Of a stretch of 64,000 nt of DNA, positions 13,958 through 51,296 are shown piece after piece (positions within the stretch are counted from its first letter, which is position 1; every line of letters starts with the position of its first letter). The stretch lies in the NCBI GenBank assembly GCA_000004985.1, contig GG738924.1; one strand, written 5' to 3'. The stretch is from Naegleria gruberi. Lineage: Eukaryota. Position numbers and translations under genes: made by a program. The notes beneath the pieces are model-generated. The model had not been told where the DNA came from, made no database searches, and worked only from the letters and a program-made list of their open reading frames with translations.

Positions 13958-16090
13958 ATGACTCACAAGAATAACTCTACCACCAACAATACCACAACGT
14001 CTTCATCCATTGACCAAAATGCTACCACTTTTCAATTTCAATTTGTCTTTGACAAGGTCATGCTCAACCAAAGAACATTGAAATTATTCAAAGAATTTCT
14101 AATGAAGAGTTTACATTCCCCAGAAGCTATCCTCTTCTATGAGAAAGTTCTCGAATTTAAATCATTCGAAGGACAAGCTCTGACTGAACATCAGACGAAA
14201 CTTGCTTAGAATATTGTGGAGAATGTTATTTTTGTTGGCTCCGCGCATGAAATTAACATTGGAAAAAGAGAGAGAAATCAGGTACTTGAGAGGGTGAAGA
14301 GATTATTAGGTAATAACCCACAAAGAAGTGAAGTTGAGTTGCAATATTTTTCGAATAGTAAGCAAACGCTCAATAAGAAAGAAACCGAAAGTGATGAACA
14401 ATCAGAAACTTCAACAAATAAGCAAAAGAGCTTTTCTTCGATGAATGAGACTTCTACCTTCATAATGGTCGATCCAATTAACATTTTTGATGAAGCATTA
14501 GTGACAGTTAAGAGACAACTCAAAGAAGACGTGTTTCCACTTTTTTTGAGAAGTGACAGATTTCTGACATTTTGTAAGAAGGCATCGAGAGAAACTCTGG
14601 GAGAGATTGGTTATGAGAGAAGACAGTGTCGTCAATCTGGCAACGTTTCTATTGAAGATTTTTGGAAATTTTACAGAGCTGATTGTGAATCTCTAAATGT
14701 CAATGGTCAAGATGTCAAATTTTTAAGCTCTTTATCAATAGATAGTTCTGATTGGACTCTATTAGAGCAAGAATACTTTAAAAAGAGTTGTTTTGCAACA
14801 TTTGTTTCATCTGAAACTCATTGCATGATTAGACCAGAAACTTCCGAATATAGAAATCCAAATTCACAACATATTTACAAATGTACAGGTGTCATTAATC
14901 ACTCAACTGAGAAAGTATTGAAAGCTCTGACAGATTCTCACTTTATGGCCACTTATGATAATAATTTAGCTGTTTGTGAATGCATTGATTTTGTAAATTC
15001 TCAAATTCAAAGCAATTCTCTTCCTGAATCATTATTCGAATTGGACGAAACTGTTCAATTCTCCTCCTCTATCATTCTACAAAATTATCCTTTCAACTGG
15101 CCACTTTCTGGAAGAGATTTCCTCACCAGTCAAACAGATGTCTATGAAAAATCCACTCAACGTTATTTCATTCTCATCAAATCTGTCAACCATCCACTTG
15201 CCAAACCAAAAGAAGGAAGTGTCAGATCTTATCTTGTCGGTGGTTGGATTATTCAACCAATTTCTGATGAATTCTCACGATATACTTTGGTCAATTATAT
15301 GGATGTGAATATGAGTGAAAAATTAGTTCAGCAATTTCAACTGAGGAGAGGAAAGAAATTATTCCATTCGTTGAATAAGATATTGAAAGAGATGGACAGG
15401 AGTTCAATGAATGAGGTGAATGATTCGTGTGGTTTATTGGAAACTTTGGACGAATTTTTGGATTTATACGAAATTAACATTGATGACCAATATAGGAAAG
15501 TGAAGAAACTAAACAAGATGGAAATGAAGGAACTTCTCACTCCAAGAAAAACTCACCTCGCAAGCACTTCTACCTCAAATCTCGACCACCTTTCGAATAA
15601 GATTATTCGATTGACCTACATTTCCAAATGTAAGAAAAATTTCAATTCTACAGAGCTTGACAAGATTGCAACCACTGCAACTCGATTCAATTCCAGTATC
15701 AACGTAACTGGTCTCCTTCTCTATTGTAAAGAAGGAATTTTCTATCAAGTATTAGAAGGTGAAAAAGAATTAGTTTCAAATCTATTCGAAAAGATTAAGA
15801 AAGATTCGAGACATTTCGATGTGAAATGTGTCAAAATGGAAACAGATTTATGTGATCGTGATAGACAATTCAAGGGATGGGCCATGAACACAGTTAACTT
15901 GGAAACGTCAGATCATTTCTTTGCTGATTTTATGAAAGAATTATTAGTGACAGTTTCAAAGATGGAGCTCAATAACATGACAGAAGATCAAGCTGTTGGG
16001 TTTATATTCAAGACATCGAGGCAGATGTTTGAGAAGAGTAGGGAGAGCGGATTTGTTTCGAGATTAGGTTCTTGTTTTTGTATGAAATAA
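13958..16090 (+). CDS. RGS domain - START-like lipid-binding domain - BLUF photosensor domain protein. ORFs 13958..14209 and 14216..16090 are in the same frame, interrupted only by an in-frame TAG at 14207..14209.
   Basis: RGS: FQFQFVFDKVMLNQRTLKLFKEFLMKSL...FDEALVTVKRQLKEDVFPLFLRSDRF, aligned by memory colinearly to RGS4 with the TAG at the RGS4 KKIY helix position. START-like: SGRDFLTSQ...ILIKSVNHPLAKPKEGSVRSYLVGGWIIQP...TLVNYMDVN. BLUF (about 15595..15900): IIRLTYIS...INVTGLLLYCKEGIFYQVLEGEKELVSNLFEKIKKDSRH...FKGWAMN, with the photoactive Tyr, Gln and Trp/Met positions conserved (AppA-like). Confidence 0.8.
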
Positions 16091-16472
16091 AGGTAAATAA
16101 AGTGGACGAAAGTAAACTAAAGTTGATTCTCAAAGTGTTATCTCTTTATGATCTAATAACGTATCAGTATTAGGAAGGTCCTATCTCCTGTAATAGAATG
16201 AAAACTATTTTGGCGCCTTTTCCTCCTTAATGTCATCTGACAAGTGTCAAAAAACCACCAGTAAATGTCTCAAAACGTAAAAAATCCAACCATCAACCAC
16301 CATCACCAAGTACATCTTAATTCCTCCTCCTCATAACAAATCCCATCTCACCTGCCAACCATCAAACCAACACTATTTTTTTTTCGCGCCATTTCCCTCT
16401 ATCCAATCTCTACAATTATTTTCAATTCAGCAACTCAAAAAAAAACTCGCGATTCCAAATTTCTTCGAAGAA

Positions 16473-19400
16473 ATGAGCAGCGTTGAATATCAGCACGGCA
16501 ATGAAGTGCTTTTCATAAAGAAGGGAAGTAGTGGCGAGTCAACCAACAACAATAATAACGCGATGACCACAGAAAGTAATGATCATAAGGCACAGGAATT
16601 GGCTCATCACGGCGATTCGAAGGATGAACATGTTGATAGTCAACATCATCACCCGAAAGGACCGTTTACATTAACGGCAGATGAATTGTCAGAGATGCAT
16701 CAGAATAAGGATTTGAAAGGGTTGCAAAAGATGGGTGGAATGTCTGGTTTGATGAGAGATTTGAAAACTGATGCAAAGAGGGGGATTGCCTGGAAGTCGA
16801 ATTATCAAAGTTATGATGAGAGGACGAATCTGTATGGTCTTAATGTGTATCCTGAACCGCCGGCTAAAGGTCTCTTCAAAATATTCTTTGAGGCTCTATC
16901 AGACGAAACTCACATTATTTTAATGATATTCGCCTTCATTTCGATGGTGTTGGGATTGGCATTTCCTGAATCTGAAGAGGAAAGACCAATTGGTTGGATT
17001 GATTCGTTTGCAATTTATATAGCTGTAGCTATTGTTTGTGTGGTTACAACCGCCAACGACTATTCGAAAGAGAAAAAGTTTAAAAACTTGTCAAGAGAAT
17101 CCAAAAAGGTAATGGTTAAGGTTATTAGAGATGGGGAAAATTTTAGCGTTCTCACTGATGATATCAGAGTTGGAGATATTGTTGAAATTGAACAAGGAGA
17201 TGGTATTCCAGCTGATGGGCTCTGTATTGAATCAAACCATTTGAAAACAGACGAATCTGTCATGACAGGAGAACCAGATTTGATTAAGAAGAATACAACA
17301 GAATTAATTTTCTTATTGAGTGGTTGTACAGTTGCTGAAGGTTCTGGAAAGATGCTTGTTACAGGTGTTGGTGTTGGAAGTGAATGGGGAAGAACCTTGC
17401 AAAGTTTGAAAGAAGCCAATGAAGAACAAAGAGAAACTCCTCTCGAAGCCAAATTAGATAAGCTCGCCATCAATATTGGTAAAGTTGGTACTGCATTTGC
17501 GATTGGTACTGTTACCATTTTGATTTTGGCCTTTTGGATTAAGAAATTGATGTACACTTCAACTTGGGTTGAGGCCTCATCAACATTTGAAGAAACTTGG
17601 CAAGAAAAGAATGTAGTTGATGTGGTCAAGTACTTTATTATTGCTTTGACTATTGTCGTCGTTGCTGTCCCTGAAGGTTTACCACTTGCTGTCACAATTG
17701 CTCTTGCTTACTCTGTTCGTAAAATGATGAAAGATCAGAATTTAGTTAGACACTTGGCAGCTTGTGAGACTATGGGTGGTGCTAACAATATTTGTTCTGA
17801 CAAGACTGGTACACTTACTTTGAATCAGATGAGAGTTACCCAAGCTTATTTTGGAGATCGATTCTTTGGTGAGCAATTGAGCTCAATACTGTTGACATTG
17901 AAATCACCACTGTTGCAAGTAATCATTGATGGTATTGTTGCCAATTCAAAGGCAAACTTGGTCAAGGGTGATGACAATAATAAGAATAAGGAGTATGCCA
18001 CTCAAGGAAGTAAGACTGAAGCTGCTCTTTTACTTTTACTTGTCAAACATTTGAATCAGACCATTGACAGTTACAAAGATAGAAGAAATGAATTGCTAAG
18101 TGAAGAAAGAGGCTCTCACCTCCAACTTCCATTCAATTCCAACTTGAAGCGTATGAGTACCATCGTTACAAACTCTGAGGGAGAAACCAGATATCGTCTC
18201 TTCACAAAGGGTGCTTCTGAAATTGTCCTCAAATTGTGCTCCTATCACATGGCTAGTGATGGTTCATTGAGAAAGATGGATTCTGAAAAGGAAGCTGAAA
18301 TGATGAAATGTATTGAAGATATGGCTAATCAAGGTTTGAGAACAATTTGCTTGGCCTACAGAGATGTCAATCCAGAAGTTGAATTCTCATCACGAGCTGA
18401 TGAAGAAAATTATTTAGAAAATATTGATCCAGTTACCTTGGAACAAGATTTAGTATGTATTGGTATTGTAGGCATTAAGGATCCATTGAGACCTGAAGTA
18501 CCAGCAGCTATTGAACAATGTAAGAAATCAGGTATCACTGTCCGTATGATTACAGGTGACAATATCTTGACAGCCAAGTATATTGCCAGAGAGTGTGGTA
18601 TCTTGTCGAAGGATGGTATTGCTATTGAAGGCCCAACATTCAGAAAGATGACTCCAGAGCAAATTGATGAGATTCTTCCAAAATTACAAGTTATGGCTCG
18701 TTCCTCACCAACTGACAAGTTTATTCTTGTAAAGCATTTGAGAAAGAAGGGTAACGTTGTTGCTGTGACTGGAGATGGTACCAATGATGCTCCAGCTCTT
18801 AAAGAAGCCGATGTTGGATTGAGTATGGGTCTTAGTGGAACCCAGGTTGCTAAGGAAGCTTCTGATATCATTATTTTGGACGATAACTTCTCATCCATTG
18901 TTAAGAGTGTGTTGTGGGGTCGTTCCATTTACGAGAATATCAGAAAGTTTTTAGTTTTCCAATTGACAGTCAACGTGGTTGCTTTGATTTTAACAATTGT
19001 TTCTGCTGTTTCGTCTGCTTTCCAACATAATTCTTCCTATAGGCCACCTTTGAGTCCTGTACAAATGTTGTGGATCAACTTGATCATGGACACGTTTGCA
19101 GCTCTCGCCCTTGCCACAGAACCTCCAATTCCAGAACTTTTAGACAGAAAACCTCACGGAAGAAAGGATTCCCTCATTACAATGAGAATGTGGACCTTCA
19201 TTGCTGCTGAATCAATCTTCCAGCTCACTGTCATGTTCACACTCTTCTATGGAGCAACCTCATTCAGAGGACTTTCATTCAGCTTAGCCAGAAATGATGC
19301 TGAAATGAGAACCATCATTTTTAATGCTTTCGTATTTTGTCAAGTTTTCAATCAATTCAACGCAAGAAAGATTAATTTTGAGTATGATATTTTCAGAGGA

Positions 19401-19724
19401 GTTTTCAAGAGTTTCTGGTTTATTGGTATCACCATAATGATTTTCATTTTACAAATTGCCATCATTAACTTTGCCTATTATGATCCAATTCTTATTGGTT
19501 TGGGTAAGAATGATGGTTTGACTGCCTCCAATTTTACCCAGACCATTCCATTGAATTGGTATCAATGGGCCATAACTATTTCCATTGGTTTCATCAGTAT
19601 TCCATATGGCTTTTTAGTGAGATTCGTCAGCAGAATGTTTTTGAAATTATTGAGCTTGAAGAAGAATAACAGACAAATTACCAGTGATGGCTACGAGGAA
19701 ACCTATTCCAAAGCAAGTGAATAA
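16473..19724 (+). CDS. Plasma-membrane-type Ca2+-transporting P-type ATPase (PMCA, P2B)
   Basis: Motifs CSDKTGTLT (phosphorylation site), TGDGTNDAPALKEADVGLSMG, PEGLPLAVT, 10 predicted TM segments and a PMCA-like N-terminal region. Single 1083-aa ORF. Confidence 0.9.
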   Translation: MSSVEYQHGNEVLFIKKGSSGESTNNNNNAMTTESNDHKAQELAHHGDSKDEHVDSQHHHPKGPFTLTADELSEMHQNKDLKGLQKMGGMSGLMRDLKTDAKRGIAWKSNYQSYDERTNLYGLNVYPEPPAKGLFKIFFEALSDETHIILMIFAFISMVLGLAFPESEEERPIGWIDSFAIYIAVAIVCVVTTANDYSKEKKFKNLSRESKKVMVKVIRDGENFSVLTDDIRVGDIVEIEQGDGIPADGLCIESNHLKTDESVMTGEPDLIKKNTTELIFLLSGCTVAEGSGKMLVTGVGVGSEWGRTLQSLKEANEEQRETPLEAKLDKLAINIGKVGTAFAIGTVTILILAFWIKKLMYTSTWVEASSTFEETWQEKNVVDVVKYFIIALTIVVVAVPEGLPLAVTIALAYSVRKMMKDQNLVRHLAACETMGGANNICSDKTGTLTLNQMRVTQAYFGDRFFGEQLSSILLTLKSPLLQVIIDGIVANSKANLVKGDDNNKNKEYATQGSKTEAALLLLLVKHLNQTIDSYKDRRNELLSEERGSHLQLPFNSNLKRMSTIVTNSEGETRYRLFTKGASEIVLKLCSYHMASDGSLRKMDSEKEAEMMKCIEDMANQGLRTICLAYRDVNPEVEFSSRADEENYLENIDPVTLEQDLVCIGIVGIKDPLRPEVPAAIEQCKKSGITVRMITGDNILTAKYIARECGILSKDGIAIEGPTFRKMTPEQIDEILPKLQVMARSSPTDKFILVKHLRKKGNVVAVTGDGTNDAPALKEADVGLSMGLSGTQVAKEASDIIILDDNFSSIVKSVLWGRSIYENIRKFLVFQLTVNVVALILTIVSAVSSAFQHNSSYRPPLSPVQMLWINLIMDTFAALALATEPPIPELLDRKPHGRKDSLITMRMWTFIAAESIFQLTVMFTLFYGATSFRGLSFSLARNDAEMRTIIFNAFVFCQVFNQFNARKINFEYDIFRGVFKSFWFIGITIMIFILQIAIINFAYYDPILIGLGKNDGLTASNFTQTIPLNWYQWAITISIGFISIPYGFLVRFVSRMFLKLLSLKKNNRQITSDGYEETYSKASE

Positions 19725-20613: not shown

Positions 20614-20657
20614 CGTGCAAAAAAACAAAATAAAAATTTCAATATTATTCACTCACA

Positions 20658-27269: not shown

Positions 27270-30200
27270 TTACAAATCTTCATCATCTTCCTCATCGTCA
27301 TCATCAAATTCTTCATCACTGGCATCATTATCAGTTGTTCCAGTCATTGTAAAGTTTTCCATATCCGCATCGAACAATGTTAACATGGCATCTTCTTCCT
27401 CCAAGATTGCCTCTGGTGAAATAAATGATTGTCCAAAGCTGGCTGTACTGTTTTGTCTGGAAAGCATCTTACTGGTATCATCAGAACATGAAGAAATTGT
27501 GCTGGAAAGTGGAGAAGTTGGTGGTAAATCGGTTCCCAATTGTTGTTTCTCCAATTGTTGTTGCTTTTCCAATTGTTTTTTGAGTTTCTTTTCCTTCTTT
27601 TTCTTTTCTCTCTTGTGTTTCTTGATGGTTGCTGCAAGACTCTTGTTTCTGATATTTCTACCCATTTTCAAGTCATTGTAGAGAGTTGCTGACATGTCGA
27701 CTCTTTCGGCAGCTTCCTTGCCCATGCAGGAAATGACATGTTTCCAAACAGGATCTTCTTCTGGAATAACTGGAATGCTGTTAATGTTCTTTCGAATATA
27801 ATCATTGAAACCTTTCATCATACCCTTGGCACGATCCATTCTCAACAAGTTGATGGCAAATCTGGCATTTCCACCAACATCCAACAAGTGAATTTGAGTA
27901 ATATTAGTTCTATAAGAGTCAAGTTTCTTAATGGAATAGTATTGGAAATCTCTGATATCAATGAGCTTCTTTCCTTCATTGACGCCCTTGCCATCCATGT
28001 AAAATCTTTCGTGTTCGCATGGTTTGTAGAGGAGTGTTAATTTTTCTTCATTCTTATCATAGTAAGCTGTACAAACACTCAAGAAACTTCTCTTTGTTGT
28101 GAATGGGAATGGGAAACCAACTCCGTATCTGATAACACCACATGACCTAGGACCTCTCTTGAATTTCTCATTTGGATACATCTTTTTCAAAGTTTCAAAA
28201 TCATAGAATGATAATTCTTCACAGGAGGTAATATTTGGATCGTATTTGTGAACTTGCAATCCTGGCATGCAACATTTCTTGACAGCGTCAAAAGGAAATG
28301 GTAAAATACCTGTCCACTTGTTAATTTGCATTTTCTGATAGAATCCAACGTTAGGGAAGAGTACCTTTTCTGATAATTTATATACATTGATAGCTCCTTC
28401 CTTCTTGGATCCCAATAATTTCCATTGATAATCATCTCTTGCCAAGTATTCCATAAATTCAATGTCCCTGTCAAAGACAAATGGTAATTTAAAGTCTTCA
28501 TCTCCGTATGGATAGTAAGTGGCTTCCTTGAGACGTCCAACTTTGGTCAAATAACTCAAACCTTTGTGTTGTAATTTCTTAAACCACACATCACTTCTCA
28601 CAAACCTAGGGAAACTGTCATTTTCCAATTCATACATGACAGAATTCTTCATTGTACGGAACAACAAGTGTGGAGGTTGTGGCAACAACCATTCATCAAA
28701 TTCCTGATATTGTTTTGATTCTTGGAAGAGTCCAACAAAGGTACGTTTGTCACGAGAGGAAATGTTAATTTCCTTCTTTGAATCTTCCTCAATAAAATCT
28801 TTCATAATTTGAATTGCTAACATGATTTGCTTTCTGTAAACTTTGAGAACTTGATCATATTTGGAACGTGGAGTATTTGGTGGAAGTGTAAGGAATGCGT
28901 GTTGGAGAGATCTTGGTCTATCTCCAGATGTTCTTGATGAGCTACCTGAAATATCAGAACGTTCAGAAGTTGGATCATCCTCAGGTGATGCAACTCCATT
29001 CCTCAATTCTTCCTTCTTCTTTTCCTTCTTTTCAGTGAGAACTGTCAAGAGACTCTTCATGCCATTGTCTTCTTGTCCACTATTACTTGAAGCACCAACT
29101 GGGGTACTATCTTCACTTTCACCACTTTCACTCTTTTCAACGAGTCCCAAGTTTAATTTTGGTAATGCTCTTGGAGTTGGTGTGGTAAGAGAAATACCAG
29201 GTTCTCCTACAGTACCAGAAGTGCCATTTGTTGCATGTTCATTGGTGAAGTGTTCAGTTGTTTTGATTGTGACCACCTCAGCATCAGTTTCAGTTGCCTT
29301 TACAGTTGGCACATCCTTCAAAATCATGTCCATCAAGGTGGTTTCTTTCTTTTCAGATGGAGAGGTTGGATTTGAATGTGGAGTATTGACATTACTATTT
29401 GTATTGCTATTTGGATTGCTTGCAGTTGCATTTTGATCCTTCTTCTTTTTCAAAATGGAAAGTCTCAAACTAAATCTATTAGACTTTTCAGATTCGTCAT
29501 CTTCTGCATCATTGGTAGTTGGAGTACTATTAGTTTGTGGTGTATTTGCTTTAGTTTCATCCACCTTTGGCTTTTTACCCAATCCAAAGAATGATAATTG
29601 TTTCTTGGCTGCTTTTCTTGGTGTAGTTGGTTCAGATTCAGATTTGGATGGTGATTTAGTCTTATCATTTTGAGTCATCATGAGCATCATCTTTGGTAAA
29701 TCAGAGAATGGAGTTTTAAAATGTGAAAAAGTGGCTGATGAGCCAGATCCAGAATTTGACAAGGAAGATGCAGCAGAACCACCTTCAAGAGCCAAATTAG
29801 CATTAGCAGTTTGAATATCCTTGACCATTTTCATCATTTTGTAATAGGTAAATTCCAATTCATTCACTCGAGTAATAAATTCCAAAGGTTCTGTATTGTG
29901 TTCAGTTTCCAAATATCTGTAAAAGGCACGAAACATGGTTCTATCTGTGAAAATTCCCTGGAATGAGAATAAATAATCTTCCAAATTGGTTTCAACGAAT
30001 AATTGTTGTTGAGATGGCAACTTGCCAGTTTTTGAAATGTGTGAAGAGGAGGCAACAGTTGACAATCCTCTCTCTGCAGAACCTGATGATTTCTTAGTTG
30101 GCAGTGAAAAGATCATTGGTGTTTCCTTATATCTCTTTTCATCTGCATCTATTTTAGTTTCAATGGTTGGTGTAGCTTGACCATCTTCACTACCATTTTG

Positions 30201-30572
30201 TGCTCCTGCTGATGTTGTTGTCGATGATGATGTTGAATTGTTTTTATCATGTGAAGAATTGGTTCTGAAACGATTGAAAAGTTTGGAAGCAAATGAAGAT
30301 GTGTGAGTTTTCTGAGTTGGAGTGGATGTAGTAGTATTTGGAGTTGAGGAGGTTTTGGTATTGCTATTCTTTCCATTAGATGTAGATGTGGTGATGGTGT
30401 TATTATTGGAAGTAGATGTGGAAATGTTGGTATGTTCGTCTTCATCATCCTCTTCTTCCTCTTCGACTGCTCCCAGGGCTTCTATATTCACTCCATATAA
30501 TGTATTATTATTATTATTATTAGCAGTATTATTATTATCATTATTATTGGTTGGATGTGGTGGAGGTTTCAT
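27270..30572 (-). CDS. RGS-domain protein with a C-terminal START-like domain. It is a paralog of the 13958 and 49755 genes and has long low-complexity linkers.
   Basis: RGS N-terminal half FSFQGIFTDRTMFRAFYRYLETEHNTEPLEFITRVNELE and C-terminal half DSFPRFVRSDVWFKKL. The START-like C-terminus is TKRSFLSVC...LYKPCEHERF...ITQIHLLDVGG...FAINLL. Single 1100-aa ORF. The S/T/N-rich and acidic tracts are typical of this genome. Confidence 0.6.
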   Translation of the reverse strand: MKPPPHPTNNNDNNNTANNNNNNTLYGVNIEALGAVEEEEEDDEDEHTNISTSTSNNNTITTSTSNGKNSNTKTSSTPNTTTSTPTQKTHTSSFASKLFNRFRTNSSHDKNNSTSSSTTTSAGAQNGSEDGQATPTIETKIDADEKRYKETPMIFSLPTKKSSGSAERGLSTVASSSHISKTGKLPSQQQLFVETNLEDYLFSFQGIFTDRTMFRAFYRYLETEHNTEPLEFITRVNELEFTYYKMMKMVKDIQTANANLALEGGSAASSLSNSGSGSSATFSHFKTPFSDLPKMMLMMTQNDKTKSPSKSESEPTTPRKAAKKQLSFFGLGKKPKVDETKANTPQTNSTPTTNDAEDDESEKSNRFSLRLSILKKKKDQNATASNPNSNTNSNVNTPHSNPTSPSEKKETTLMDMILKDVPTVKATETDAEVVTIKTTEHFTNEHATNGTSGTVGEPGISLTTPTPRALPKLNLGLVEKSESGESEDSTPVGASSNSGQEDNGMKSLLTVLTEKKEKKKEELRNGVASPEDDPTSERSDISGSSSRTSGDRPRSLQHAFLTLPPNTPRSKYDQVLKVYRKQIMLAIQIMKDFIEEDSKKEINISSRDKRTFVGLFQESKQYQEFDEWLLPQPPHLLFRTMKNSVMYELENDSFPRFVRSDVWFKKLQHKGLSYLTKVGRLKEATYYPYGDEDFKLPFVFDRDIEFMEYLARDDYQWKLLGSKKEGAINVYKLSEKVLFPNVGFYQKMQINKWTGILPFPFDAVKKCCMPGLQVHKYDPNITSCEELSFYDFETLKKMYPNEKFKRGPRSCGVIRYGVGFPFPFTTKRSFLSVCTAYYDKNEEKLTLLYKPCEHERFYMDGKGVNEGKKLIDIRDFQYYSIKKLDSYRTNITQIHLLDVGGNARFAINLLRMDRAKGMMKGFNDYIRKNINSIPVIPEEDPVWKHVISCMGKEAAERVDMSATLYNDLKMGRNIRNKSLAATIKKHKREKKKKEKKLKKQLEKQQQLEKQQLGTDLPPTSPLSSTISSCSDDTSKMLSRQNSTASFGQSFISPEAILEEEDAMLTLFDADMENFTMTGTTDNDASDEEFDDDDEEDDEDL

Positions 30573-37000: not shown

Positions 37001-37984
37001 TCCACCTTCAAAGGAATTGACAAGCTCAGAGGAGAAACAAAGGACCATTTTTCAACCATGCTCGATCAAAGAGAATTTTCTCTCTCTGATCTCTCACAAA
37101 AAATGATGAATTTGGTAGAATTTCAAGTAGCCACTCCAAAGACACACGAGAGTGTCGCTGCTCAGGCATCTGCTGATTTGGGAAAGGAAATGAGCTTTAG
37201 CTCTTCTTCCAATAATTTGAAAGCCACATCAACTTCATCCTCTCAGGACACTTCTCTGCCGCAAGTTGTGACCTACTTTATCGATACCATTTGCTTGAAA
37301 GGTAAAAATCAACCTGTTCCAGTATTTGCAGTTCAATGTGATAGAAAATTAGCGACATCTGAACAAATTTACATTGAAAAAATGTTGGATCTGGTTCGTA
37401 GAGAGCTATTGGAAGAGAAACGATTGAAAGATGTCATTCATTTATTGCGGAGTTTGATGCTTTTCTTTGAGGAGAATCAATTGACCGATTCACCAGTATT
37501 TAGAGAACACAACACTGATCATTATGAGTTTAAATTTGGAGAGGAAATTCATACACCTATTTCTAGCATCAATGGAGAAAAGACCGAGGAGGAAATTTCT
37601 ACCAATGTTGAAGGAGATCCCTATCCAGTCATTTACAAGGCCATTTCGAAACTAAAGGAAAGATTGGAACTTACCTTAATGGAACACGAAGCCAAGAAGA
37701 GAAAAGTCCAAATCAACAAGAAACGTAGTTTACTAACAGCACTCTCTATTGATACTCGATCCAAATCTGATCCACTCATTCATCCAATACTTCCAATTAT
37801 TCCAGATTTTTCAACAACTTCACTTTTGGAAGAAAACAACAATATTGAAACTGTGGAGAACTCTGAATCAACACCAACCATGGCCAAATATGAATATTAT
37901 CGACAAATGGCCTTGATGGAAAATGAAAATAGAAGAAGCTCAATGAAATTGGACGATTTTGCTTTGGTATTGCATGAGAAATAA
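34051..37984 (+). CDS. Receptor-type class III adenylyl/guanylyl cyclase. Exon 1 is 34051..34946 and exon 2 is 35062..37984. The intron 34947..35061 is 115 nt (GTAAGT...AAAAG).
   Basis: The S/T/N-rich N-terminus ends in a TM helix (LLFIVIIHTLVCIIATSVILY) and is spliced in phase to an extracytoplasmic sensor-like domain of about 380 aa (Cache/CHASE-like). A second TM (LLVVLVVTVLIGTLAVLAL) follows. The cyclase homology domain is AEITIVFTDLANFT...IDKYIGDGCMALFNTP...ARVGVNTGSALIGNIGTHDRLNFTAVGDCVNVSSRLESLN...YGTKILIGEGS, followed by a C-terminal tail. Confidence 0.75.
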
Positions 37985-38076: not shown

Positions 38077-39552
38077 ATGTCCCTCAAACTCCAAGTCTAT
38101 GAAGATGTGGCTGAACAACAACAACAACAATGGCCTGATGTTTCCCTCCGTAAGCAACTCTCCCAATCCGACCCCAAATGGTTCATCAAGCCTTCTAATT
38201 ATTCTCACTTGGCAGAGTTGGAGATTTATCCAAGAGTTTTCCTTGGTTCTCAGTGGGAAGCAAAGGATCCAGACTGGTTTCAAACTCACAGAATTTCCCA
38301 TGTTTTGAATGTGAGTACGCTGCAGAATACCTTCCAGAAGAAGCCTTTGTATTATAGTAATTTATCAACAAATTCCTCATCGGATCCAGAGAATACAAAT
38401 CCAAATATTATGATGATGAATAGTATGAGTAGTGGTGGTAGTCATAGTGTAAATAAGAATACAACATTGAGTGGTAAACAACAGGTACATGTAAATTATT
38501 TAAAGATTAATGTTGATGATTCGACGGATGTGAATGTGAGAAAGTACTTTGAAAAGGTGATTGATTTTGTGAGGGATGCTTTGGAAGGATCCCCAACAAG
38601 TAATGTTTTAATTCATTGGTATGTTTTGTTGTTGTTTGATGATGAAGTTAATAATAATATTATTGTTGTTATTTGTTATATTGATGATGTTTGAAATAGT
38701 AAGGAAGGTAAATCTAGATCAGTGACCATGATGTTAGTGTTCGGAATGGCTTACTTTGATTTATCACTCTATGAAGCATATAAACACTTTGAAAATAAGA
38801 CTTTTAACAGATCGAGAATTAATTTGGGATTTCAATTACAATTGATGAATTATGAAGTGGAATTGTTGGAGGCAAAAGGTGTGGAAAAACCAAAGAATTC
38901 GCTGGATTTCCTTAATCAAGCAGCAGTTAATAGTTGTCGTAGTAATGTTACACAACCTCAACCAATTCAAATCACAACAACAGAAGAACAATCAAAGAGA
39001 CCTCGAAGAAATACCAAAAAGACACCACTCTCGGATATTACTAATACTGGAGCCACTACTTTACAGCCACCACCATCAAAAGCAAAGAAATCTACTGTTA
39101 AGGTACTTCCAAAGAAGACAAAGAATGCAACAACACCTATTCCACAAATAATTCCACCAATAATTAATATTGAAGAAGATATTCCTGAAATACCCTCAAT
39201 TGTTGAGAATAGTAGCATCTCAATAGATCAACAACAAGAAAACCAACCTGTTACACCTTTGAGAAGTCCAATAAGATCGAGAAGATCGAGTCGTAAAACA
39301 CCTTCTTCTATCATTAAGATTCCATTCTCAACACTGGACAATGCATCCTATGTTTCTCCAATGAAAAACAAGATGCCACCAACACCATTGGGAACTCCTT
39401 CTATCACTAATGACATTATAATAGATGATTATTCTACATTGGAATTTAAATTTGATGAGGATGATTTGGAAATTTCTAAAGGACTCGAAGATAGAGTATT
39501 CATGACAACTCCACTCAAAAAGAGAAAGACTGACGAAGATATTATGCAGTAA
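38077..39552 (+). CDS. Dual-specificity protein phosphatase (DUSP) with a long S/T/P-rich C-terminal tail. Exons are 38077..38618 and 38700..39552. The intron 38619..38699 is 81 nt (GTATGT...ATAG).
   Basis: DUSP N-terminal fold IYPRVFLGSQWEAKDPDWFQTHRISHVLNVS. Splicing reconstitutes the catalytic loop VLIHCKEGKSRSVTMMLVFGMAY (HCxxGxxRS). Unspliced, the frame runs into a stop after HWYVLLLFDD. Confidence 0.8.
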
Positions 39553-45277: not shown

Positions 45278-47164
45278 TTAATCTTGTAAGATTTTGTTGG
45301 CCTTTCTCCAATTTTCAACAATGATCCTCACTGATTTGTTACTAGATTTCAATCTTTCGAATAGATCGGTCATGTTATTGAGACATGCAACTCGAACAAT
45401 GTCAAATAATGTACTGGCTATGAGTGAATCATCATTCACACTCAGAATTTCATGTTCAATTCTCAGATAAATTTGGTCAATGTTGGCAATATTCAATTCT
45501 AATGGAGATCCTTCTTTCAGGTAGGTTTTCAATATTTTCATTGCCACCAGTTTCTTATTCTTTCGTTTGGGGGATTTTCTGAAATTTTCAATATCTCTAT
45601 ATGCTAAAACATCTTCATTACAATAACTCCTTGTCGCAAAATCCAATAACAATGCAAATGTCTTCCTATTTTTCAAAAATAATTCAAGTTCTGATTGAGC
45701 ATACTCAGCTTGATGATTATCATTACGAATGGCATAAATGACAGGAAGAATGACTGAAATAATTATTTCCAATAATGAATAGGTCAGTAGAGTAAATCCA
45801 AATGGAACGAAATAATCTGTCAAGAATCTGATAATCTCAATTTGTCCACTAATTATATAAGCAAGTGATAAAGCCACTTGAATAAATACCAAAACAAAAG
45901 CTTCAGTCTTAATTGACCAAGTATCTCTATCAACAAAGAAGAGAATGATCAAAAAGCTCACTTCTATCACAATGTAGAGTGCTGCTTCTGCTCCCAGCAA
46001 TATAACAGTATTTGAGGTTGTAACACATCCACTATTAAATGCAAATGGACTCACATTCCACAAGAATATTCTCTTTCCACTATTACTATACGAAAGTTCA
46101 TCAATTCCTCCCAATAAAGCCCAAATAGATAAGTGAATAATGAATGAAATTGTATAAGTGATTGCAATAAACTTGTAGCTCACCAAATATGAAAATATTT
46201 TGAACTTTTTGTCAGAGAAAATTGCAGAAGTGTTGTCAATGTCAGAAGAAGTGACCCACGTTTTTTGATCTTGTTCATCATGGACATCTTCTCCAGTTTC
46301 TGGAGTAACCCGTGTTGTTGTAATCTGTTCTGAAGTTTGTGATGCATCGTTTGGATTTTCTTGTGATATATTTGAAATGGTACTCGAGTTATCAAATGTT
46401 TTTGGTGTCAATAATTCTGGTTGACTTGTCTCTGATAATTCCGTAGAAGATCCATGTTGTATAGATGCTAATGGAAGAATGGTAATACCTTTCAATTTGT
46501 CATCCTCTTGAACTTGTTGATCCACATTTTGTTCCTTTTTCACATTGGTCAATTGTTGTGGTTTTTCACTTTTCGTCTGAAACATTTGTGCCTTCTTCTT
46601 ATTGAGTAAATACATGAAATAAATCCTCAAACATCGAAATACAGTTGGCAGACACAAACTAGGAATAATGATGAAAAACGAAAAAGTGTACAAGAAACAT
46701 GGAAATATTTTCCTCGAAATTGTAAATCGTAGACATGTAATGACCACAAAAGCCAAACTAGCTGATATTGTCAGTAGCATGTAAACTGGATTCCTAGCTT
46801 TGATGTGTCCACTCTTTCTCTTCCAAATAACTCCAACAGTTCCAAAAAGTGCCAACGTCAAATAGAGTGTCAAGAAGATGGATGCGATGATTGGTGTAAA
46901 GATGCTGTCTGGGCAAATATTATTTACCACTGTTGCATTGTATCCTTCACGACTCAAGTCTCCTAGATTGAACAATCTTTCGTCACATATTGAATAATTT
47001 GTTGTTGAGGTATTGTTGTTGGAAAGTTGTTGTTGTTGAATAGAATAAATTGTTGTTGCTATTGGATAACGATAATGAAAAGATTCTTGAATAAATGATG
47101 AAAGAAGGGTAAATATTCGAAATTGGGTTTCATTATTTTGACCTGCATGATGCAGCTGGTACAT
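45278..47164 (-). CDS. Seven-transmembrane receptor with a C-terminal RGS domain (7TM-RGS, AtRGS1-like architecture), copy A
   Basis: Seven hydrophobic helices with a long S/T-rich loop between TM3 and TM4. C-terminal RGS box KTFALLLDFATRSYCNEDVLAYRDIENFRK...LFDIVRVACLNNMTDLFERL. ATG start. Confidence 0.7.
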   Translation of the reverse strand: MYQLHHAGQNNETQFRIFTLLSSFIQESFHYRYPIATTIYSIQQQQLSNNNTSTTNYSICDERLFNLGDLSREGYNATVVNNICPDSIFTPIIASIFLTLYLTLALFGTVGVIWKRKSGHIKARNPVYMLLTISASLAFVVITCLRFTISRKIFPCFLYTFSFFIIIPSLCLPTVFRCLRIYFMYLLNKKKAQMFQTKSEKPQQLTNVKKEQNVDQQVQEDDKLKGITILPLASIQHGSSTELSETSQPELLTPKTFDNSSTISNISQENPNDASQTSEQITTTRVTPETGEDVHDEQDQKTWVTSSDIDNTSAIFSDKKFKIFSYLVSYKFIAITYTISFIIHLSIWALLGGIDELSYSNSGKRIFLWNVSPFAFNSGCVTTSNTVILLGAEAALYIVIEVSFLIILFFVDRDTWSIKTEAFVLVFIQVALSLAYIISGQIEIIRFLTDYFVPFGFTLLTYSLLEIIISVILPVIYAIRNDNHQAEYAQSELELFLKNRKTFALLLDFATRSYCNEDVLAYRDIENFRKSPKRKNKKLVAMKILKTYLKEGSPLELNIANIDQIYLRIEHEILSVNDDSLIASTLFDIVRVACLNNMTDLFERLKSSNKSVRIIVENWRKANKILQD

Positions 47165-47232
47165 TGTTGTCTTTTGGACGCAATTTTTTTGTTGTTGCTT
47201 GTCTCACACAATTAGGATATCCTACAGATCAC

Positions 47233-49164
47233 CTACAGGTTTAAACTGTTTCTACGAAAGTTAATAACCATTTCTTGTATGTTCTTGTCTGTGGCTTTCA
47301 ATCTTTCAAATACATCAACCATGTTATTTAGACAGAGAACTCTAATATCATCAAACAAGGTATTGGGAATCAGAGAAGGGTTTGTTGCTTTTTGGAGAAT
47401 TGATTCAATTTCTTCATACTTTTTGGAAAGGTTTGACATGTTGAGCTCGAGAGAAGATCCACTTTTAAGATAGGTTTTCAATATTTTCGTGGCAACCTTC
47501 TTCTTGTGCTTTTTGGAAATCTTTCTAAACTTTTCAATGTCTCTGAAGGCAAGAACATCTTCAGGGCAGTAGCATCTTCTGGAAAATTCTAAAAGTAAGG
47601 CAAATGTTTTTCTATTTTTGAGAACCGTCTCAATTTCAGTTTGGGAATATCCTCCATTCTCGGTATTTAATTGTTTTTGAAACTTTCTGTCATCAATAAT
47701 TGCATAAATTACAGGTAACAATACAGCAATAAATATTTCAAATACTGAATAGGTCAGTAGAGTAAATCCAAACGGAACGAAATAATCTGTCAAAAATCTA
47801 ATCACCTCAATTTGACCACTAACTAAGAATGCAATAGCTGTTATGATTTGAATCACAATTAATACAAAGGTATCTCTTTTGATATGAAAAGCATCTCTAT
47901 CAGCAAAGAATAATGGAATAAAGAATGCAATCTCGATAATAATGTAGATGGCTGCCTCTGCTGCCAACATAAAGACAGTGTTAGTGTTAGTAACACAGCC
48001 TGTAGTTGCTGCAAACATGCTGATATTCCACAAGAATACTCTTTTTCCTCCATTACTAACAACAAGTTCATCGGCTCCTCCAAATATTGCCCAAATAATA
48101 AGATGCAAAATGAAGGCAACAATATACGATGAAGCAATGAGTTTGTAACTCACCAAGAAGGAATAAACCTTAAATTTCCTATCATTATAAACTGATTCTG
48201 TATAGTCCACATCAGTTGAGGTAACCCATGAACGGGAATCATCTTCAGTGTCTGAATCTACCTCACTTTTTCGTTGTTCTGATGAAACATGACTTGATGT
48301 ATTGTTGTCAGTCAATGGGGTATCGGGAATGTGTGGAATAACAACACCATTATTATTGGTAGTAGTAGTAATTTCTGGAAAGGTGAATTTTTCCACACTA
48401 AAAGGTTCAACTACATCTTGATGTTCTGTTAAAGTGGTGGGAATTAATTCAAAATTGACCACTCTACTTGATGTGAGAGCTTCCCTAGACGTCGATGGAC
48501 TATTGTCTTGTTGGTGACTCTGTGAATCTCTTGCTGTTGTGATGTGAGATACCACCAATGAGAGGGAAGAATTATTGTTGAGTGCAGATGATGAAGCTGA
48601 ATGTTTTGATGATTCAAAAGTCATTGCTTTTCTTATATTCAACTTGTACATGAAAAAGATACGAATGAATCGGAATACTGCTGGAAGACACATTGCAGGC
48701 ACTGTGATAAAGTATGAAATAGTGTATAAAAAGCAGGGGAATATCTTTCTTCCTATAATAAATCGCAAACAAGTTGTTACGACAAAGTACAAAGTTGCCG
48801 AGATGGTCAAAATCATATGAAGTGGATTACGAGCCTTGATGTGTCCACTGTTTCTCTTCCACAACACTCCAATAATAGCCAAAGTAACCAAACACAAATA
48901 AACAAATAGAAAAACTGCTGAAACTATTGGAGTGAAGATACTATCTGGACAAATGTTATTGACCATCGTGGCATTATATCCTTCTCGGCTCAGTTCTCCC
49001 AATTTAAAGAGTCTCTCATCACAAATAGATGATGTTGAATTACTATTTGATGAGGTATTTGATGATGCAACCAATAAAGAAGAAATAATTGTTGGCACTT
49101 GACTGCTCACGCTACTGAAGAAATATTGCAATACTTGTTGTAGTGGAATGAGTTGTGCAACCAT
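47233..49164 (-). CDS. Seven-transmembrane receptor with a C-terminal RGS domain, copy B (tandem paralog, about 70-75% identical in the TM1-TM3 and RGS regions). First ATG is at 49164; the ORF-track start at 49227 is a TTG.
   Basis: Same 7TM + RGS layout (KTFALLLEFSRRCYCPEDVLAFRDIEKFRK...LFDDIRVLCLNNMVDVFERL). The copies are colinear, with conserved blocks ICDERLF.LG.LSREGYNAT.VNNICPDSIFTPI and GHIKARNP. Confidence 0.7.
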   Translation of the reverse strand: MVAQLIPLQQVLQYFFSSVSSQVPTIISSLLVASSNTSSNSNSTSSICDERLFKLGELSREGYNATMVNNICPDSIFTPIVSAVFLFVYLCLVTLAIIGVLWKRNSGHIKARNPLHMILTISATLYFVVTTCLRFIIGRKIFPCFLYTISYFITVPAMCLPAVFRFIRIFFMYKLNIRKAMTFESSKHSASSSALNNNSSLSLVVSHITTARDSQSHQQDNSPSTSREALTSSRVVNFELIPTTLTEHQDVVEPFSVEKFTFPEITTTTNNNGVVIPHIPDTPLTDNNTSSHVSSEQRKSEVDSDTEDDSRSWVTSTDVDYTESVYNDRKFKVYSFLVSYKLIASSYIVAFILHLIIWAIFGGADELVVSNGGKRVFLWNISMFAATTGCVTNTNTVFMLAAEAAIYIIIEIAFFIPLFFADRDAFHIKRDTFVLIVIQIITAIAFLVSGQIEVIRFLTDYFVPFGFTLLTYSVFEIFIAVLLPVIYAIIDDRKFQKQLNTENGGYSQTEIETVLKNRKTFALLLEFSRRCYCPEDVLAFRDIEKFRKISKKHKKKVATKILKTYLKSGSSLELNMSNLSKKYEEIESILQKATNPSLIPNTLFDDIRVLCLNNMVDVFERLKATDKNIQEMVINFRRNSLNL

Positions 49165-49754
49165 TTTCTTTGTTGTGATCTTCAGCAACAGTGTTGACAA
49201 CTTTGATGGGAAAGGAAACTTTTCCAAGCCTCCGAAACAAAACGGGTTGATGTTATGCCTTACATATCATCTCGACTCGATTTTTTGGTTATGAAAATTT
49301 TTTGTGATGTGTTGATTGGTATTGTATAATCTTTTTTAGGACCAAAGCTGTAATAATAATTTTTAAAAAATATTTGAAAAAGATATTGTTAATAATAATA
49401 TCGGGTTGATGTTGTTAGTGTTTGAGTGGGTTAACAAGTTGAAACACCTGAAGGAATTTCAGATCAGCACGATGAGATTATTTAAATAGTAGTGGTTTTT
49501 AAATTTTTATTGTTGGACAAGTGTTCGTTGAGGAATGACCATACTCAATTCATCAATTACACGAATAACAATTTGAATATCGCCAAACAATCACTGTGTT
49601 TTACTCTTTACTTTGTGTGCTCAACAATAAAAAGAGTACTAGCCTTGAAAGCTTGTTTAGATTCTTACTGCCTTGATGTGTAACATGTCAGCCAATCTAA
49701 GGAAGTAAACGAAATATAAAAAAATATGAAACTCGTCATCACCGTTACATCAAC

Positions 49755-51296
49755 ATGAGTAATAATAGCACATCACAACAGAAGAAACGAAAATTCGAAA
49801 CCAACCGATATATGGTTGTTTTTGAGGAGTTGCTGAGAGCTCCAGAAGCAAGAGAAAATTTCAGAGGTTTTCTCAAACTGGTTCATTGTGAGGAACCTCT
49901 TCAATTGATCGATGCCATTGATTCATACAGAACCGAACATAAAAAGCTAATAGATAATATTGATGACAGTGCTTCCGATTTTGATTTTCAAGGTTTTAAA
50001 AAGATACTACTCCTTGTGAATCAACTTGAAAATATTGTAAATACCTTTGGATTGGAAGATTCTATTGAAAAGTTTTCACATTATTATATGGGTGCTTGGA
50101 CTCGTACACTGAATCTCTACCATCTTGTAACACTAAAATTGGAATCCATTTCCAACTCTAACAAAACTAACAACAAGCAAATATTTGAAATTTTAGAAAT
50201 TTTAAATCCTTCCAATATTTTGGAAGATGTAGAGACAAAGGCAATTCTTGATTTGAAATATGATGAATTTCCAAGGTATGCCAGGTCGAATACGCTTCAC
50301 TTGTTTCTTGTACGAAAGGGTGAAGAATATACGAGAAGAATTGCTATTAATATTGCTAACGATTTTTATGTAGATATTAGATTTAAACCTAAAGATTTTG
50401 AATCTCAATTAATGACTGATAAGGATGTTTATTTTGCTTATACATTGAGTGAAGATACACCTGATTGGAAAGAATTAACTTGTAGCGAGAAACCTAACTT
50501 TTTACAGACCTTTGTTTCAAAAACAGTTTATTCAATAGGACCAGACGAAATGAAAGGAATGAGATTATTTAAATTGGTAATGCATCTGCCCTATGCAGTT
50601 GAAGATGTTTGGGCTACGTATTGTGATATGAATACACGATTCAAACTTGATCACACTCTCATGAAAGATTTCAAATTGCTGAGATATATTCCACCACATC
50701 AGAAGAAATCAAGTGAGCAACGAGATTCCATTTCATTTTATGAGATATTTGATGAGAGAGATAATCGATACACTGTGGATAAACCACCACTTGCCATTCA
50801 GATTGGAGCTCTGGGTATTGAAATGCACATTCCACTATTGAAACACAGAGACTTGCCACATACAATGACTTCACTTTATGATCCCTCGGTGAATTGTTAC
50901 ATGAACATTGGTCACACGTGCAAGATTGAGGAATCACTCAGGCGTGCACCTACAGATAGAGTCAAGTCTGAAATTTTGTTCAATTACATGTTCTTTGGTA
51001 CTGGAGAAAAATCAACAAGATTTATTCACACAGTGTATACAGACCTACATGTTCCTTTGGATTCTGATTTTGTTTTGAGTAAGATTTGGAAGAATAGAAG
51101 CAAACAATTACAGGCCTCATTTGAAGAATTACTAGCAGAAAAAACCAAGGGAGGAACCATTTCCATTGACAAATCTATGGTGAATGATCATTTCAAATAT
51201 TTTACAGCTGTGGAAGACAATGCCAAATTGAATAGAAAGTGGTACAGAGATTATTTGAGAAAGAAAAATCAAATGCAAATTGAATATGGTGATTGA
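49755..51296 (+). CDS. RGS-domain protein with a C-terminal START-like region (third paralog of the RGS-START family)
   Basis: RGS N-terminal half MVVFEELLRAPEARENFRGFLKLVHCEEPLQLIDAIDSY and C-terminal half DEFPRYARSNTLHLFL, with an insert between them. The C-terminal region of about 300 aa has START-like landmarks (RDSISFYEI..., ...FIHTVYTDLHVPL...). ATG...TGA. Confidence 0.5.
   Translation: MSNNSTSQQKKRKFETNRYMVVFEELLRAPEARENFRGFLKLVHCEEPLQLIDAIDSYRTEHKKLIDNIDDSASDFDFQGFKKILLLVNQLENIVNTFGLEDSIEKFSHYYMGAWTRTLNLYHLVTLKLESISNSNKTNNKQIFEILEILNPSNILEDVETKAILDLKYDEFPRYARSNTLHLFLVRKGEEYTRRIAINIANDFYVDIRFKPKDFESQLMTDKDVYFAYTLSEDTPDWKELTCSEKPNFLQTFVSKTVYSIGPDEMKGMRLFKLVMHLPYAVEDVWATYCDMNTRFKLDHTLMKDFKLLRYIPPHQKKSSEQRDSISFYEIFDERDNRYTVDKPPLAIQIGALGIEMHIPLLKHRDLPHTMTSLYDPSVNCYMNIGHTCKIEESLRRAPTDRVKSEILFNYMFFGTGEKSTRFIHTVYTDLHVPLDSDFVLSKIWKNRSKQLQASFEELLAEKTKGGTISIDKSMVNDHFKYFTAVEDNAKLNRKWYRDYLRKKNQMQIEYGD

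What the first reader, a model, noticed from the sequence alone, without database searches (positions are those of the whole stretch)
13958..51296. Concentration of G-protein and cyclic-nucleotide signalling genes, including a three-member RGS-START family
About 37 kb hold three RGS + START-like paralogs (13958..16090 with BLUF, 27270..30572, 49755..51296), a tandem pair of 7TM-RGS receptors (45278..49164), a receptor adenylyl cyclase with an extracellular sensor (34051..37984), a PMCA Ca2+ pump and a DUSP phosphatase. They are interspersed with unrelated housekeeping genes. The shared RGS(split by an insert)-START layout of the three paralogs argues for local duplication and divergence; one copy gained BLUF and another gained long low-complexity linkers. 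An RGS domain coupled to a lipid-transfer fold is itself an unusual pairing that suggests lipid-gated GAP activity.
Basis: partly seen in the sequence, partly recalled or inferred. Interest (0 to 1): 0.6.

Follow-up and report, generated by a model that had tools for sequence, protein, structure and literature searches.

The report
Naegleria RGS-START genes, chance neighbours
This 37-kb stretch of the Naegleria gruberi genome does hold five G-protein-regulator (RGS) genes, three of them fused to a lipid-binding START domain and one also to a blue-light sensor, but the three are old, distant members of a very large gene family, not local duplicates.

Summary
The window is Naegleria gruberi (gene C is 100% identical to NAEGRDRAFT_59903). 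All domain calls hold.

- **RGS:** five RGS genes, and no others in the 64 kb.
- **Other genes:** a PAC-type BLUF in gene A, a two-TM class III cyclase, a PMCA pump and a DUSP phosphatase.
- **7TM-RGS pair:** 51% identical, a real tandem duplication.

Local duplication of the three RGS-START genes is not supported.

- Their START domains are only 16-19% identical.
- Each has its own orthologs in N. fowleri, N. lovaniensis or Willaertia.
- They fall in separate, well-supported clades.
- The family has at least 447 representatives, and other N. gruberi members lie on other scaffolds.
- Gene order is not conserved in relatives.

RGS-START is the standard layout of this family, and the literature already notes the pairing. 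N. gruberi has 229 RGS genes, so the clustering is at most weakly above chance.

The most interesting part is gene A: RGS-START-BLUF. I found no paper describing this architecture. It parallels the fungal RGS-LOV photoreceptors. The window's copy carries an in-frame TAG.

The parts
13958..16090 (+). Gene A: RGS-START-BLUF protein of 710 codons, interrupted by an in-frame TAG
   Evidence: Pfam RGS 44.3 bits and BLUF 87.6 bits. Family RGS profile covers aa 26-219 and family START profile aa 229-486. No identical annotated protein was found.
14207..14209 (+). In-frame TAG inside the RGS domain of gene A (KLA*NIVENV)
   Evidence: Read directly from the sequence. The second N. gruberi copy, P0075, has Gln at this position.
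14642..15415 (+). START-like domain of gene A (aa 229-486)
   Evidence: Family profile E 5.7e-92. 27% identity over 228 aa to P0057 residues 163-366, which Pfam calls START at 166-369.
15605..15886 (+). BLUF domain of gene A (aa 550-643), PAC type
   Evidence: Pfam E 6.2e-25. E 1e-23 to OaPAC and bPAC, with RLTYIS, FYQVLEG and GWAM aligned to the photocycle residues.
16473..19724 (+). Plasma-membrane-type Ca2+-ATPase (PMCA)
   Evidence: Pfam P-type ATPase domains. Best solved relatives are plant ACA8 (1.5e-228) and human PMCA1 and PMCA2.
27270..30572 (-). Gene B: 1,100-aa RGS-START protein with long low-complexity regions
   Evidence: Pfam RGS. Orthologs at 68-78% in the START domain in N. lovaniensis, N. 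fowleri and W. magna.
28515..29972 (-). Split RGS domain of gene B (aa 201-686, with an insert of about 300 aa)
   Evidence: Family RGS profile spans aa 201-686. With the insert removed, Pfam RGS covers profile positions 1-114 of 117 at 50.3 bits.
27771..28544 (-). START domain of gene B (aa 677-934)
   Evidence: AlphaFold model pLDDT 92.7. Foldseek top 30 hits are all StARD: STARD13 5e-11, STARD5 TM-score 0.80.
34051..37984 (+). Receptor-type class III nucleotidyl cyclase, two exons, intron 34947..35061
   Evidence: Pfam Guanylate_cyc 58.8 bits. Splice sites read from the sequence. TM segments at aa 269-300 and 668-711 flank about 365 aa that have no Pfam match.
38077..39552 (+). Dual-specificity phosphatase, two exons, intron 38619..38699
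   Evidence: Pfam DSPc 32.9 bits on exon 1 alone. Splicing restores the HCKEGKSRS catalytic loop.
45278..47164 (-). 7TM-RGS receptor, copy a (628 aa)
   Evidence: Pfam RGS at aa 496-560. Seven hydrophobic segments.
47233..49164 (-). 7TM-RGS receptor, copy b (643 aa), tandem duplicate of copy a
   Evidence: Pfam RGS. 51% identity over 597 aa to copy a, adjacent and on the same strand.
49755..51296 (+). Gene C: compact RGS-START protein (513 aa), NAEGRDRAFT_59903
50337..51164 (+). START domain of gene C (aa 195-470)
   Evidence: Foldseek top 40 hits are all StARD proteins: STARD10 1.2e-8, CERT, STARD5, PCTP.

Best explanation
This is an ordinary stretch of the N. gruberi genome. It happens to hold five members of the organism's very large RGS repertoire, together with members of other expanded signalling families: a cyclase, a PMCA pump and a DUSP phosphatase.

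The three soluble genes belong to one large, old family in Heterolobosea. In this family an RGS domain, usually carrying an insert, is joined directly to a START (StAR-related lipid-transfer) domain. Genes A, B and C represent three subfamilies that separated before Naegleria and Willaertia diverged. They were not produced by duplication at this locus. The only local duplication is the 7TM-RGS pair.

Inferred mechanism (not shown here): the RGS domain acts as a GTPase activator for G-alpha subunits. The START domain binds a lipid or sterol and couples GAP activity or membrane location to it. This resembles RhoGAP-START in the DLC proteins. In gene A's subfamily, a PAC-type BLUF domain adds blue-light input. 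That is a parallel to the fungal RGS-LOV photoreceptors.
For: - Organism and domains.
- START fold.
- Family size and layout: 447 representatives at E<=1e-3. Of 86 sampled, 72 have RGS, 14 have a Pfam START hit and 2 have BLUF. P0057 is RGS + Pfam START + BLUF.
- Separate lineages: identity among A, B and C is 16-19%, and each ranks 45th-119th for the others. Orthologs in N. fowleri, N. lovaniensis and W. magna. NJ bootstrap supports of 191/200, 200/200 and 200/200 for the three separate clades, and 0/200 replicates group any two of them.
- Dispersed N. gruberi paralogs on other scaffolds: NAEGRDRAFT_45871, 69181, 51040 and 47530.
- No conserved gene order around the B ortholog in N. lovaniensis or N. 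fowleri, around the closest N. lovaniensis relatives of C, or around the A ortholog in W. magna.
- Literature: 229 RGS proteins in N. gruberi, and START listed among RGS partners. N. fowleri has 28 7TM-RGS and 79 other RGS proteins, and its 7TM-RGS domains act as GAPs.
Against: - Five RGS genes in 37 kb is nominally more than a uniform Poisson model predicts. The genome-wide expected number of such windows is 0.003, or 0.07 if the tandem pair counts once.
- Three RGS-START genes in 37 kb gives 0.004-0.09 for assumed family sizes of 30-90.
- Two of six comparison loci in other heteroloboseans also have a second RGS-type gene within 10 kb. Some general tendency of RGS genes to cluster cannot be excluded.
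- GAP activity, lipid binding and photochemistry are all inferred, not tested.
Confidence: 0.75

Rival explanations
1. The three RGS-START genes are the remains of a very old tandem array. It arose at this locus before Naegleria and Willaertia split. Since then it has diverged beyond recognition and has been partly dispersed by rearrangement.
For: - Three family members lie within 37 kb.
- In N. lovaniensis the B ortholog also has another RGS-START gene 5.6 kb away.
- Nominal Poisson enrichment.
Against: - The N. lovaniensis neighbour is closest to NAEGRDRAFT_51040, which lies on another N. gruberi scaffold. It is not closest to A or C.
- A, B and C are no closer to each other than to dispersed paralogs, and they never group in bootstrap replicates.
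- No other heterolobosean locus examined has two of the three lineages together.
Confidence: 0.12
2. The region is a functional signalling neighbourhood. Selection keeps it together so that RGS proteins, a cyclase, a Ca2+ pump and a phosphatase are co-regulated, for example during differentiation or in response to light.
For: - Signalling genes are nominally enriched.
- Blue light and cAMP/Ca2+ signalling matter in heterolobosean development. BLUF proteins and PMCA pumps are up-regulated in aggregating Acrasis.
Against: - The signalling genes are interspersed with unrelated genes on both strands: an F-box/LRR protein, a ParB-like nuclease, an N-acetyltransferase, an FAD oxidase and a RING protein.
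- None of the neighbours is conserved next to the orthologs in N. lovaniensis, N. fowleri or W. magna, apart from one small secreted protein.
- All the families involved are so large in Naegleria that co-occurrence is expected often.
Confidence: 0.08
3. Gene A is a dead pseudogene, so the family at this locus has only two working members.
For: - An in-frame TAG interrupts the RGS domain.
- No annotated protein is identical to the window's copy.
Against: - The remaining 626 codons are open, and all domains score strongly.
- The BLUF photocycle residues are intact.
- A second copy in the assembly reads CAG/Gln at the same site. The TAG could therefore be a sequencing error or a very recent change in one allele.
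Confidence: 0.35

Closest known systems
RGS proteins with START domains, noted in comparative surveys (de Mendoza et al. 2014, PMC3971589)
   Same: The domain pairing is the same. That survey lists START among the domains found with RGS in divergent taxa and counts 229 RGS proteins in N. gruberi.
   Different: The survey relied on Pfam hits, and Pfam misses START in A, B and C. The size of the family (447 representatives) and its fixed RGS-START junction are shown here, not in that paper.
DLC1/2/3 (STARD12/13/8), the animal RhoGAP-START proteins
   Same: A GTPase-activating domain is joined to a START domain. STARD13 is the top Foldseek match of gene B.
   Different: The GAP domain is RhoGAP acting on Rho GTPases, not RGS acting on G-alpha. 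The domain order and the linker also differ. The resemblance is functional and was not tested here.
Fungal RGS-LOV photoreceptors (BcLOV4; Glantz et al. 2018, PMC6099885)
   Same: An RGS domain, a flavin-based blue-light sensor and lipid or membrane binding in one soluble protein. In BcLOV4, light drives binding to anionic membrane lipids.
   Different: The sensor there is LOV, not BLUF. Lipid contact there is through an amphipathic helix, not a START pocket. The lineage is Dikarya, not Heterolobosea. Any likeness would be convergent.
Photoactivated adenylyl cyclases (OaPAC, bPAC, Naegleria PACs)
   Same: The BLUF of gene A is most similar to PAC BLUF domains (E 1e-23). The similarity includes the helix that follows the BLUF core.
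   Different: The output domain in PACs is a class III cyclase placed after BLUF. In gene A, BLUF is C-terminal and follows RGS-START.
7TM-RGS proteins (Arabidopsis AtRGS1; the N. fowleri 7TM RGS family, Bosch et al. 2022, PMC9283941)
   Same: Seven TM segments with a C-terminal RGS domain. N. fowleri has 28 such genes, and their RGS domains accelerate GTP hydrolysis on Naegleria G-alpha subunits.
   Different: The two window genes have a short extracellular N-terminus and a long third loop. They lack the EGF, lectin and GPS modules described for Nf 7TM RGS1-4.
SNX13/14/25 (RGS-PX sorting nexins)
   Different: They use PX and PXA/PXC domains rather than START, and they are membrane-anchored.

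Membership tests
RGS domain (PF00615) | Sequence match to the family profile at or above the curated cut-off | tested here: met
   A 44.3 bits. B 34.8 bits, or 50.3 with the insert removed. 7TM-RGS copies 26.5 and 26.0 bits. C is 21.3 bits in the full protein, below the 23.9 cut-off, and 24.7 bits for the isolated N-terminal region.
RGS domain (PF00615) | All-helical RGS-box fold | tested here: met
RGS domain (PF00615) | GTPase-activating activity on a G-alpha subunit | not testable with these tools
   By eye, the Asn of the E-I-N-I motif (counterpart of RGS4 Asn128) is present in A and B. The position matching RGS4 Arg167 is Arg in B and C (D-x-F-P-R-F/Y) but Leu in A (D-V-F-P-L-F). This comparison rests on my recollection of the RGS4 contact residues and is not a test.
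START / StAR-related lipid-transfer domain (PF01852) | Helix-grip fold with a long C-terminal helix | tested here: met
START / StAR-related lipid-transfer domain (PF01852) | Sequence match to the Pfam START profile | tested here: not met
   No hit for A, B or C, even at E<=10. A family profile found nothing among PDB sequences. The feature is met by 14 of 86 family relatives (best E 1.1e-12), including P0057 (40.6 bits).
START / StAR-related lipid-transfer domain (PF01852) | A lipid or sterol bound in the internal cavity | not testable with these tools
   No ligand prediction was made.
BLUF photoreceptor (PF04940) | Profile match plus the photocycle residues Tyr, Gln and Met/Trp | tested here: met
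   87.6 bits. RLTYIS, FYQVLEG and GWAM align to the same motifs in OaPAC.
BLUF photoreceptor (PF04940) | Flavin binding and a light-driven photocycle | not testable with these tools
   Needs purified protein.
BLUF photoreceptor (PF04940) | Uninterrupted coding sequence | tested here: not met
   TAG at 14207-14209, upstream of the BLUF domain. The second N. gruberi copy has Gln there.
Locally duplicated (tandem) gene family | Members are each other's closest relatives in the genome | tested here: not met
   For A, B and C: 16-19% identity, ranks of 45-119, closer paralogs on other scaffolds, and separate clades. The feature is met for the 7TM-RGS pair, at 51% identity, adjacent and on the same strand.
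Conserved functional gene cluster | Linkage of the same genes kept in related species | tested here: not met
   Flanks of about 10 kb per side, shorter where the B orthologs lie at contig ends, in N. lovaniensis, N. fowleri and W. magna share only one small secreted protein with the window. Longer-range synteny could not be examined.
7TM-RGS receptors | Seven TM helices followed by a cytosolic RGS domain | tested here: met
   Hydropathy gives seven segments in both proteins. RGS lies at the C-terminus.
Receptor-type class III adenylyl/guanylyl cyclase | Catalytic domain match, plus TM segments that enclose an extracellular domain | tested here: met
   Guanylate_cyc 58.8 bits. TM segments at aa 269-300 and 668-711. 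The fold of the enclosed 365 aa is unknown, with no Pfam hit, so calling it a 'sensor' is an inference. Substrate preference (ATP or GTP) was not examined.

The most novel reading that the evidence does not exclude
Gene A's subfamily may be a previously undescribed class of blue-light receptors in Heterolobosea. Its members found here are gene A, NAEGRDRAFT_45871, W. magna ABK040_005909 and the metagenomic P0057. In this reading, a PAC-type BLUF domain controls a lipid-binding RGS GAP, so that light acts directly on heterotrimeric G-protein signalling. It would be a convergent counterpart of the fungal RGS-LOV proteins.
Probability: 0.4. Interest if true: 0.6.

Novelty: new member of a known kind. 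Interest (0 to 1): 0.33.

Why it matters
**Annotation.** About 250 residues after the RGS box in many Naegleria 'RGS domain-containing' or 'hypothetical' proteins are a START domain that Pfam misses. This gives a lipid-binding annotation to a family with hundreds of members. It suggests that much G-protein regulation in these amoebae, including the pathogen N. fowleri, is tied to lipids or sterols.

**Light sensing.** The RGS-START-BLUF subfamily would be a direct link between blue light and G-protein signalling. Blue light is known to trigger development in a related heterolobosean, Acrasis. The proteins are also possible optogenetic parts.

**The clustering itself.** It does not appear to carry biological meaning.

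Tried and rejected
- **Pfam on the isolated C-terminal regions of A, B and C at E<=10:** no START hit.
- **A six-sequence family profile against PDB sequences:** no hit.
- **Word-indexed homolog searches:** they returned only 6, 1 and 9 proteins. They could not be used to list the N. gruberi family members. The exhaustive profile search was used instead.
- **First NJ tree:** invalid. The Kimura correction produced undefined distances above about 85% divergence and gave nonsense groupings. I discarded it and repeated the analysis with a Poisson correction.
- **afdb50 fold library:** not available.
- **N. gruberi gene positions:** none are held in the contig index. I could therefore not compute genome-wide clustering or inspect the neighbourhoods of the other N. 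gruberi paralogs.
- **Anantharaman et al. 2011:** the paper is not held in the library.
- **An intron that removes the TAG in gene A:** considered and rejected. The reading frame and the RGS profile run straight through the TAG, and the second copy's model is colinear across the site.
Full report
**Source and layout**

The window has about 34% G+C and long open reading frames with few short introns. Gene C (49755..51296) is 100% identical to NAEGRDRAFT_59903 of Naegleria gruberi, on a 196,593-bp scaffold.

**Checking the domain calls**

Pfam confirms RGS in all five candidate genes. It also confirms BLUF in gene A, a class III cyclase domain, a full set of P-type ATPase domains and a DSPc fragment.

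- An RGS profile built from the family finds only these five genes in the whole 64 kb.
- The P-type ATPase is PMCA-type. Its best solved relatives are plant ACA8 (1.5e-228) and human PMCA1 and PMCA2.
- The cyclase has an intron at 34947..35061. Two hydrophobic segments flank about 365 residues that have no Pfam match.
- The phosphatase has an intron at 38619..38699. Splicing restores the catalytic loop HCKEGKSRS.
- The two 7TM-RGS genes each have seven hydrophobic segments. They are 51% identical over 597 residues, adjacent and on the same strand. They are a genuine, though not recent, tandem duplication.

**The START claim**

Pfam finds no START domain in A, B or C, even at E<=10 on the isolated regions. 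A small family profile finds nothing among PDB sequences. The three proteins are nevertheless homologous from the last RGS helix through about 270 further residues (E 3e-9, 3e-7 and 9e-5).

A profile of that region was searched exhaustively. It finds 447 cluster representatives at E<=1e-3 and 199 at E<=1e-10. In most of them the domain follows about 150 N-terminal residues. Of 86 sampled members, 72 carry Pfam RGS, 14 carry Pfam START (best E 1.1e-12) and 2 carry BLUF.

- **Gene B.** The model of the C-terminal region (pLDDT 92.7) gives the same result: STARD13 5e-11, and STARD5 with a TM-score of 0.80.
- **Gene A.** It was not modelled. Its domain aligns at 27% over 228 residues to P0057 residues 163-366. 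Pfam calls that stretch START (40.6 bits), between an RGS and a BLUF domain.

**The split RGS**

In gene B, Pfam sees only the C-terminal half of the RGS domain. Removing residues ~263-565 gives a full-length match covering profile positions 1-114 of 117 at 50.3 bits. Gene A has a shorter insert. Gene C's model has extra helices in the same region.

**Local duplication is not supported**

- Identity between the START domains of A, B and C is 16-19%. Gene C is 30% identical to NAEGRDRAFT_69181, which lies on another scaffold.
- Among 124 family domains, the other two window genes rank 45th to 119th for each query.
- Gene B has clear orthologs: N. lovaniensis C9374_002180 (77%), N. fowleri FDP41_008333 (78%) and Willaertia magna ABK040_000987 (68%).
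- Gene A pairs with W. magna ABK040_005909, and with the N. gruberi paralog NAEGRDRAFT_45871 on a 712-kb scaffold.
- Gene C groups with several N. lovaniensis paralogs. W. magna ABK040_014386, at about 40% identity, is among its closer relatives, but its attachment to C's clade has weak bootstrap support (47/200).
- In a bootstrapped NJ tree the three clades have support of 191, 200 and 200 out of 200. No replicate places two of the three genes in a group of 30 or fewer taxa. An earlier tree was invalid and is discarded.

For A and B, the lineages therefore predate the Naegleria-Willaertia split; for C the Willaertia link is only weakly supported. BLUF belongs to gene A's whole clade, so it was not gained at this locus.

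**Synteny**

The B ortholog lies about 1.3 kb from a contig end in N. lovaniensis and about 2.5 kb from one in N. fowleri. Its neighbours differ from those in the window, apart from one small secreted protein. The loci of gene C relatives in N. lovaniensis and of the gene A ortholog in W. magna share no neighbours with the window.

Two of the six comparison loci do hold a second RGS-type gene within 10 kb. In N. lovaniensis that gene is another RGS-START, but its closest N. gruberi relative is NAEGRDRAFT_51040, on a different scaffold.

**Is the concentration more than chance?**

N. gruberi has 229 RGS proteins. N. fowleri has 28 7TM-RGS and 79 other RGS proteins. Under a uniform model, 0.21 RGS genes are expected in 37 kb. 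Finding five gives a genome-wide expectation of 0.003 such windows. Counting the tandem pair once gives 0.07. For three RGS-START genes the figure is 0.004-0.09, using family sizes of 30-90 that I assumed. This is borderline and post hoc. Weak clustering of RGS genes in general cannot be excluded. I could not compute it because N. gruberi gene positions are not in the available index.

**Likely function**

What is shown: the folds, the fixed RGS-START junction across hundreds of proteins, and the confident two-domain packing in the gene C model.

What is inferred:
- The RGS domain acts as a GAP on Naegleria G-alpha subunits, as shown for N. fowleri 7TM-RGS domains.
- The START domain binds a lipid or sterol that sets location or activity, as proposed for RhoGAP-START proteins.

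**Gene A**

Its BLUF domain is closest to the PAC photoreceptors OaPAC and bPAC (1e-23). The Tyr, Gln and Trp-x-Met residues are conserved, as is the helix that follows the BLUF core. The nearest functional analogue is fungal RGS-LOV (BcLOV4), in which blue light switches on binding to membrane lipids. Searches for papers combining BLUF with RGS in Naegleria, or BLUF with START, found none that describe this architecture.

**The stop codon in gene A**

An in-frame TAG sits at 14207-14209, inside the RGS domain. A second N. gruberi copy (P0075, on a 40.9-kb contig) reads Gln there. That protein model then jumps to the C-terminus of the PMCA gene. This suggests a haplotig or duplicate with a gap or deletion. 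No annotated protein is identical to the window's gene A.

**Verdict**

The anatomy is right and the START assignment is a useful correction to current annotation. The evolutionary reading (local duplication) and the claim that the pairing is unusual do not hold. RGS-START is a known pairing and is the standard layout of a large heterolobosean family.

Noticed in passing
window 14207-14209: In-frame TAG inside the RGS domain of gene A (KLA*NIVENV). The other N. gruberi copy has Gln at this site. The window's gene A has no identical annotated protein in the databases searched.
   Followed up: partly
window 13958-19724, compared with protein P0075: P0075 is an annotated N. gruberi protein on a 40.9-kb contig. 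It joins the N-terminal 318 residues of a gene A copy (91-98% identical) directly to the last 58 residues of the PMCA pump. This points to a second haplotype or a duplicated segment with a deletion or an assembly gap.
   Followed up: partly
window 53960-56722 (-): A 920-aa ORF with a weak DDE_3 transposase match (23.5 bits, below the cut-off). It is probably a DNA-transposon gene.
   Followed up: partly
window 57023-58027 (-) and about 58030-60520: A 334-aa ORF with no Pfam match abuts a run of about 2.5 kb of N (an assembly gap). By eye it looks like the tail of a retroelement ORF.
   Followed up: no
window 44039-44998 (+): A 319-aa protein with a signal-peptide-like start. It is made almost entirely of Lys- and Cys-rich repeats (C-x-K-x-K-K) and has no Pfam match.
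   Followed up: no
L001 9991-11781 (N. lovaniensis PYSW02000015.1): A second RGS-START gene lies 5.6 kb from the gene B ortholog. Its closest N. gruberi relative is NAEGRDRAFT_51040, on another scaffold. In both N. lovaniensis and N. fowleri the gene B ortholog lies within about 2.5 kb of a contig end.
   Followed up: partly
protein P0156 (NAEGRDRAFT_45871): The 1,284-aa model carries a BTB domain in front of RGS-START-BLUF, and its RGS match is incomplete. It may be a fusion of two genes or may be missing an exon.
   Followed up: no
window 24480-25544 (+) and 42427-43416 (-): A secreted ParB-like nuclease family protein (ParBc_2, 118.6 bits) and an arylamine N-acetyltransferase (129.5 bits) sit among the signalling genes.
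   Followed up: no
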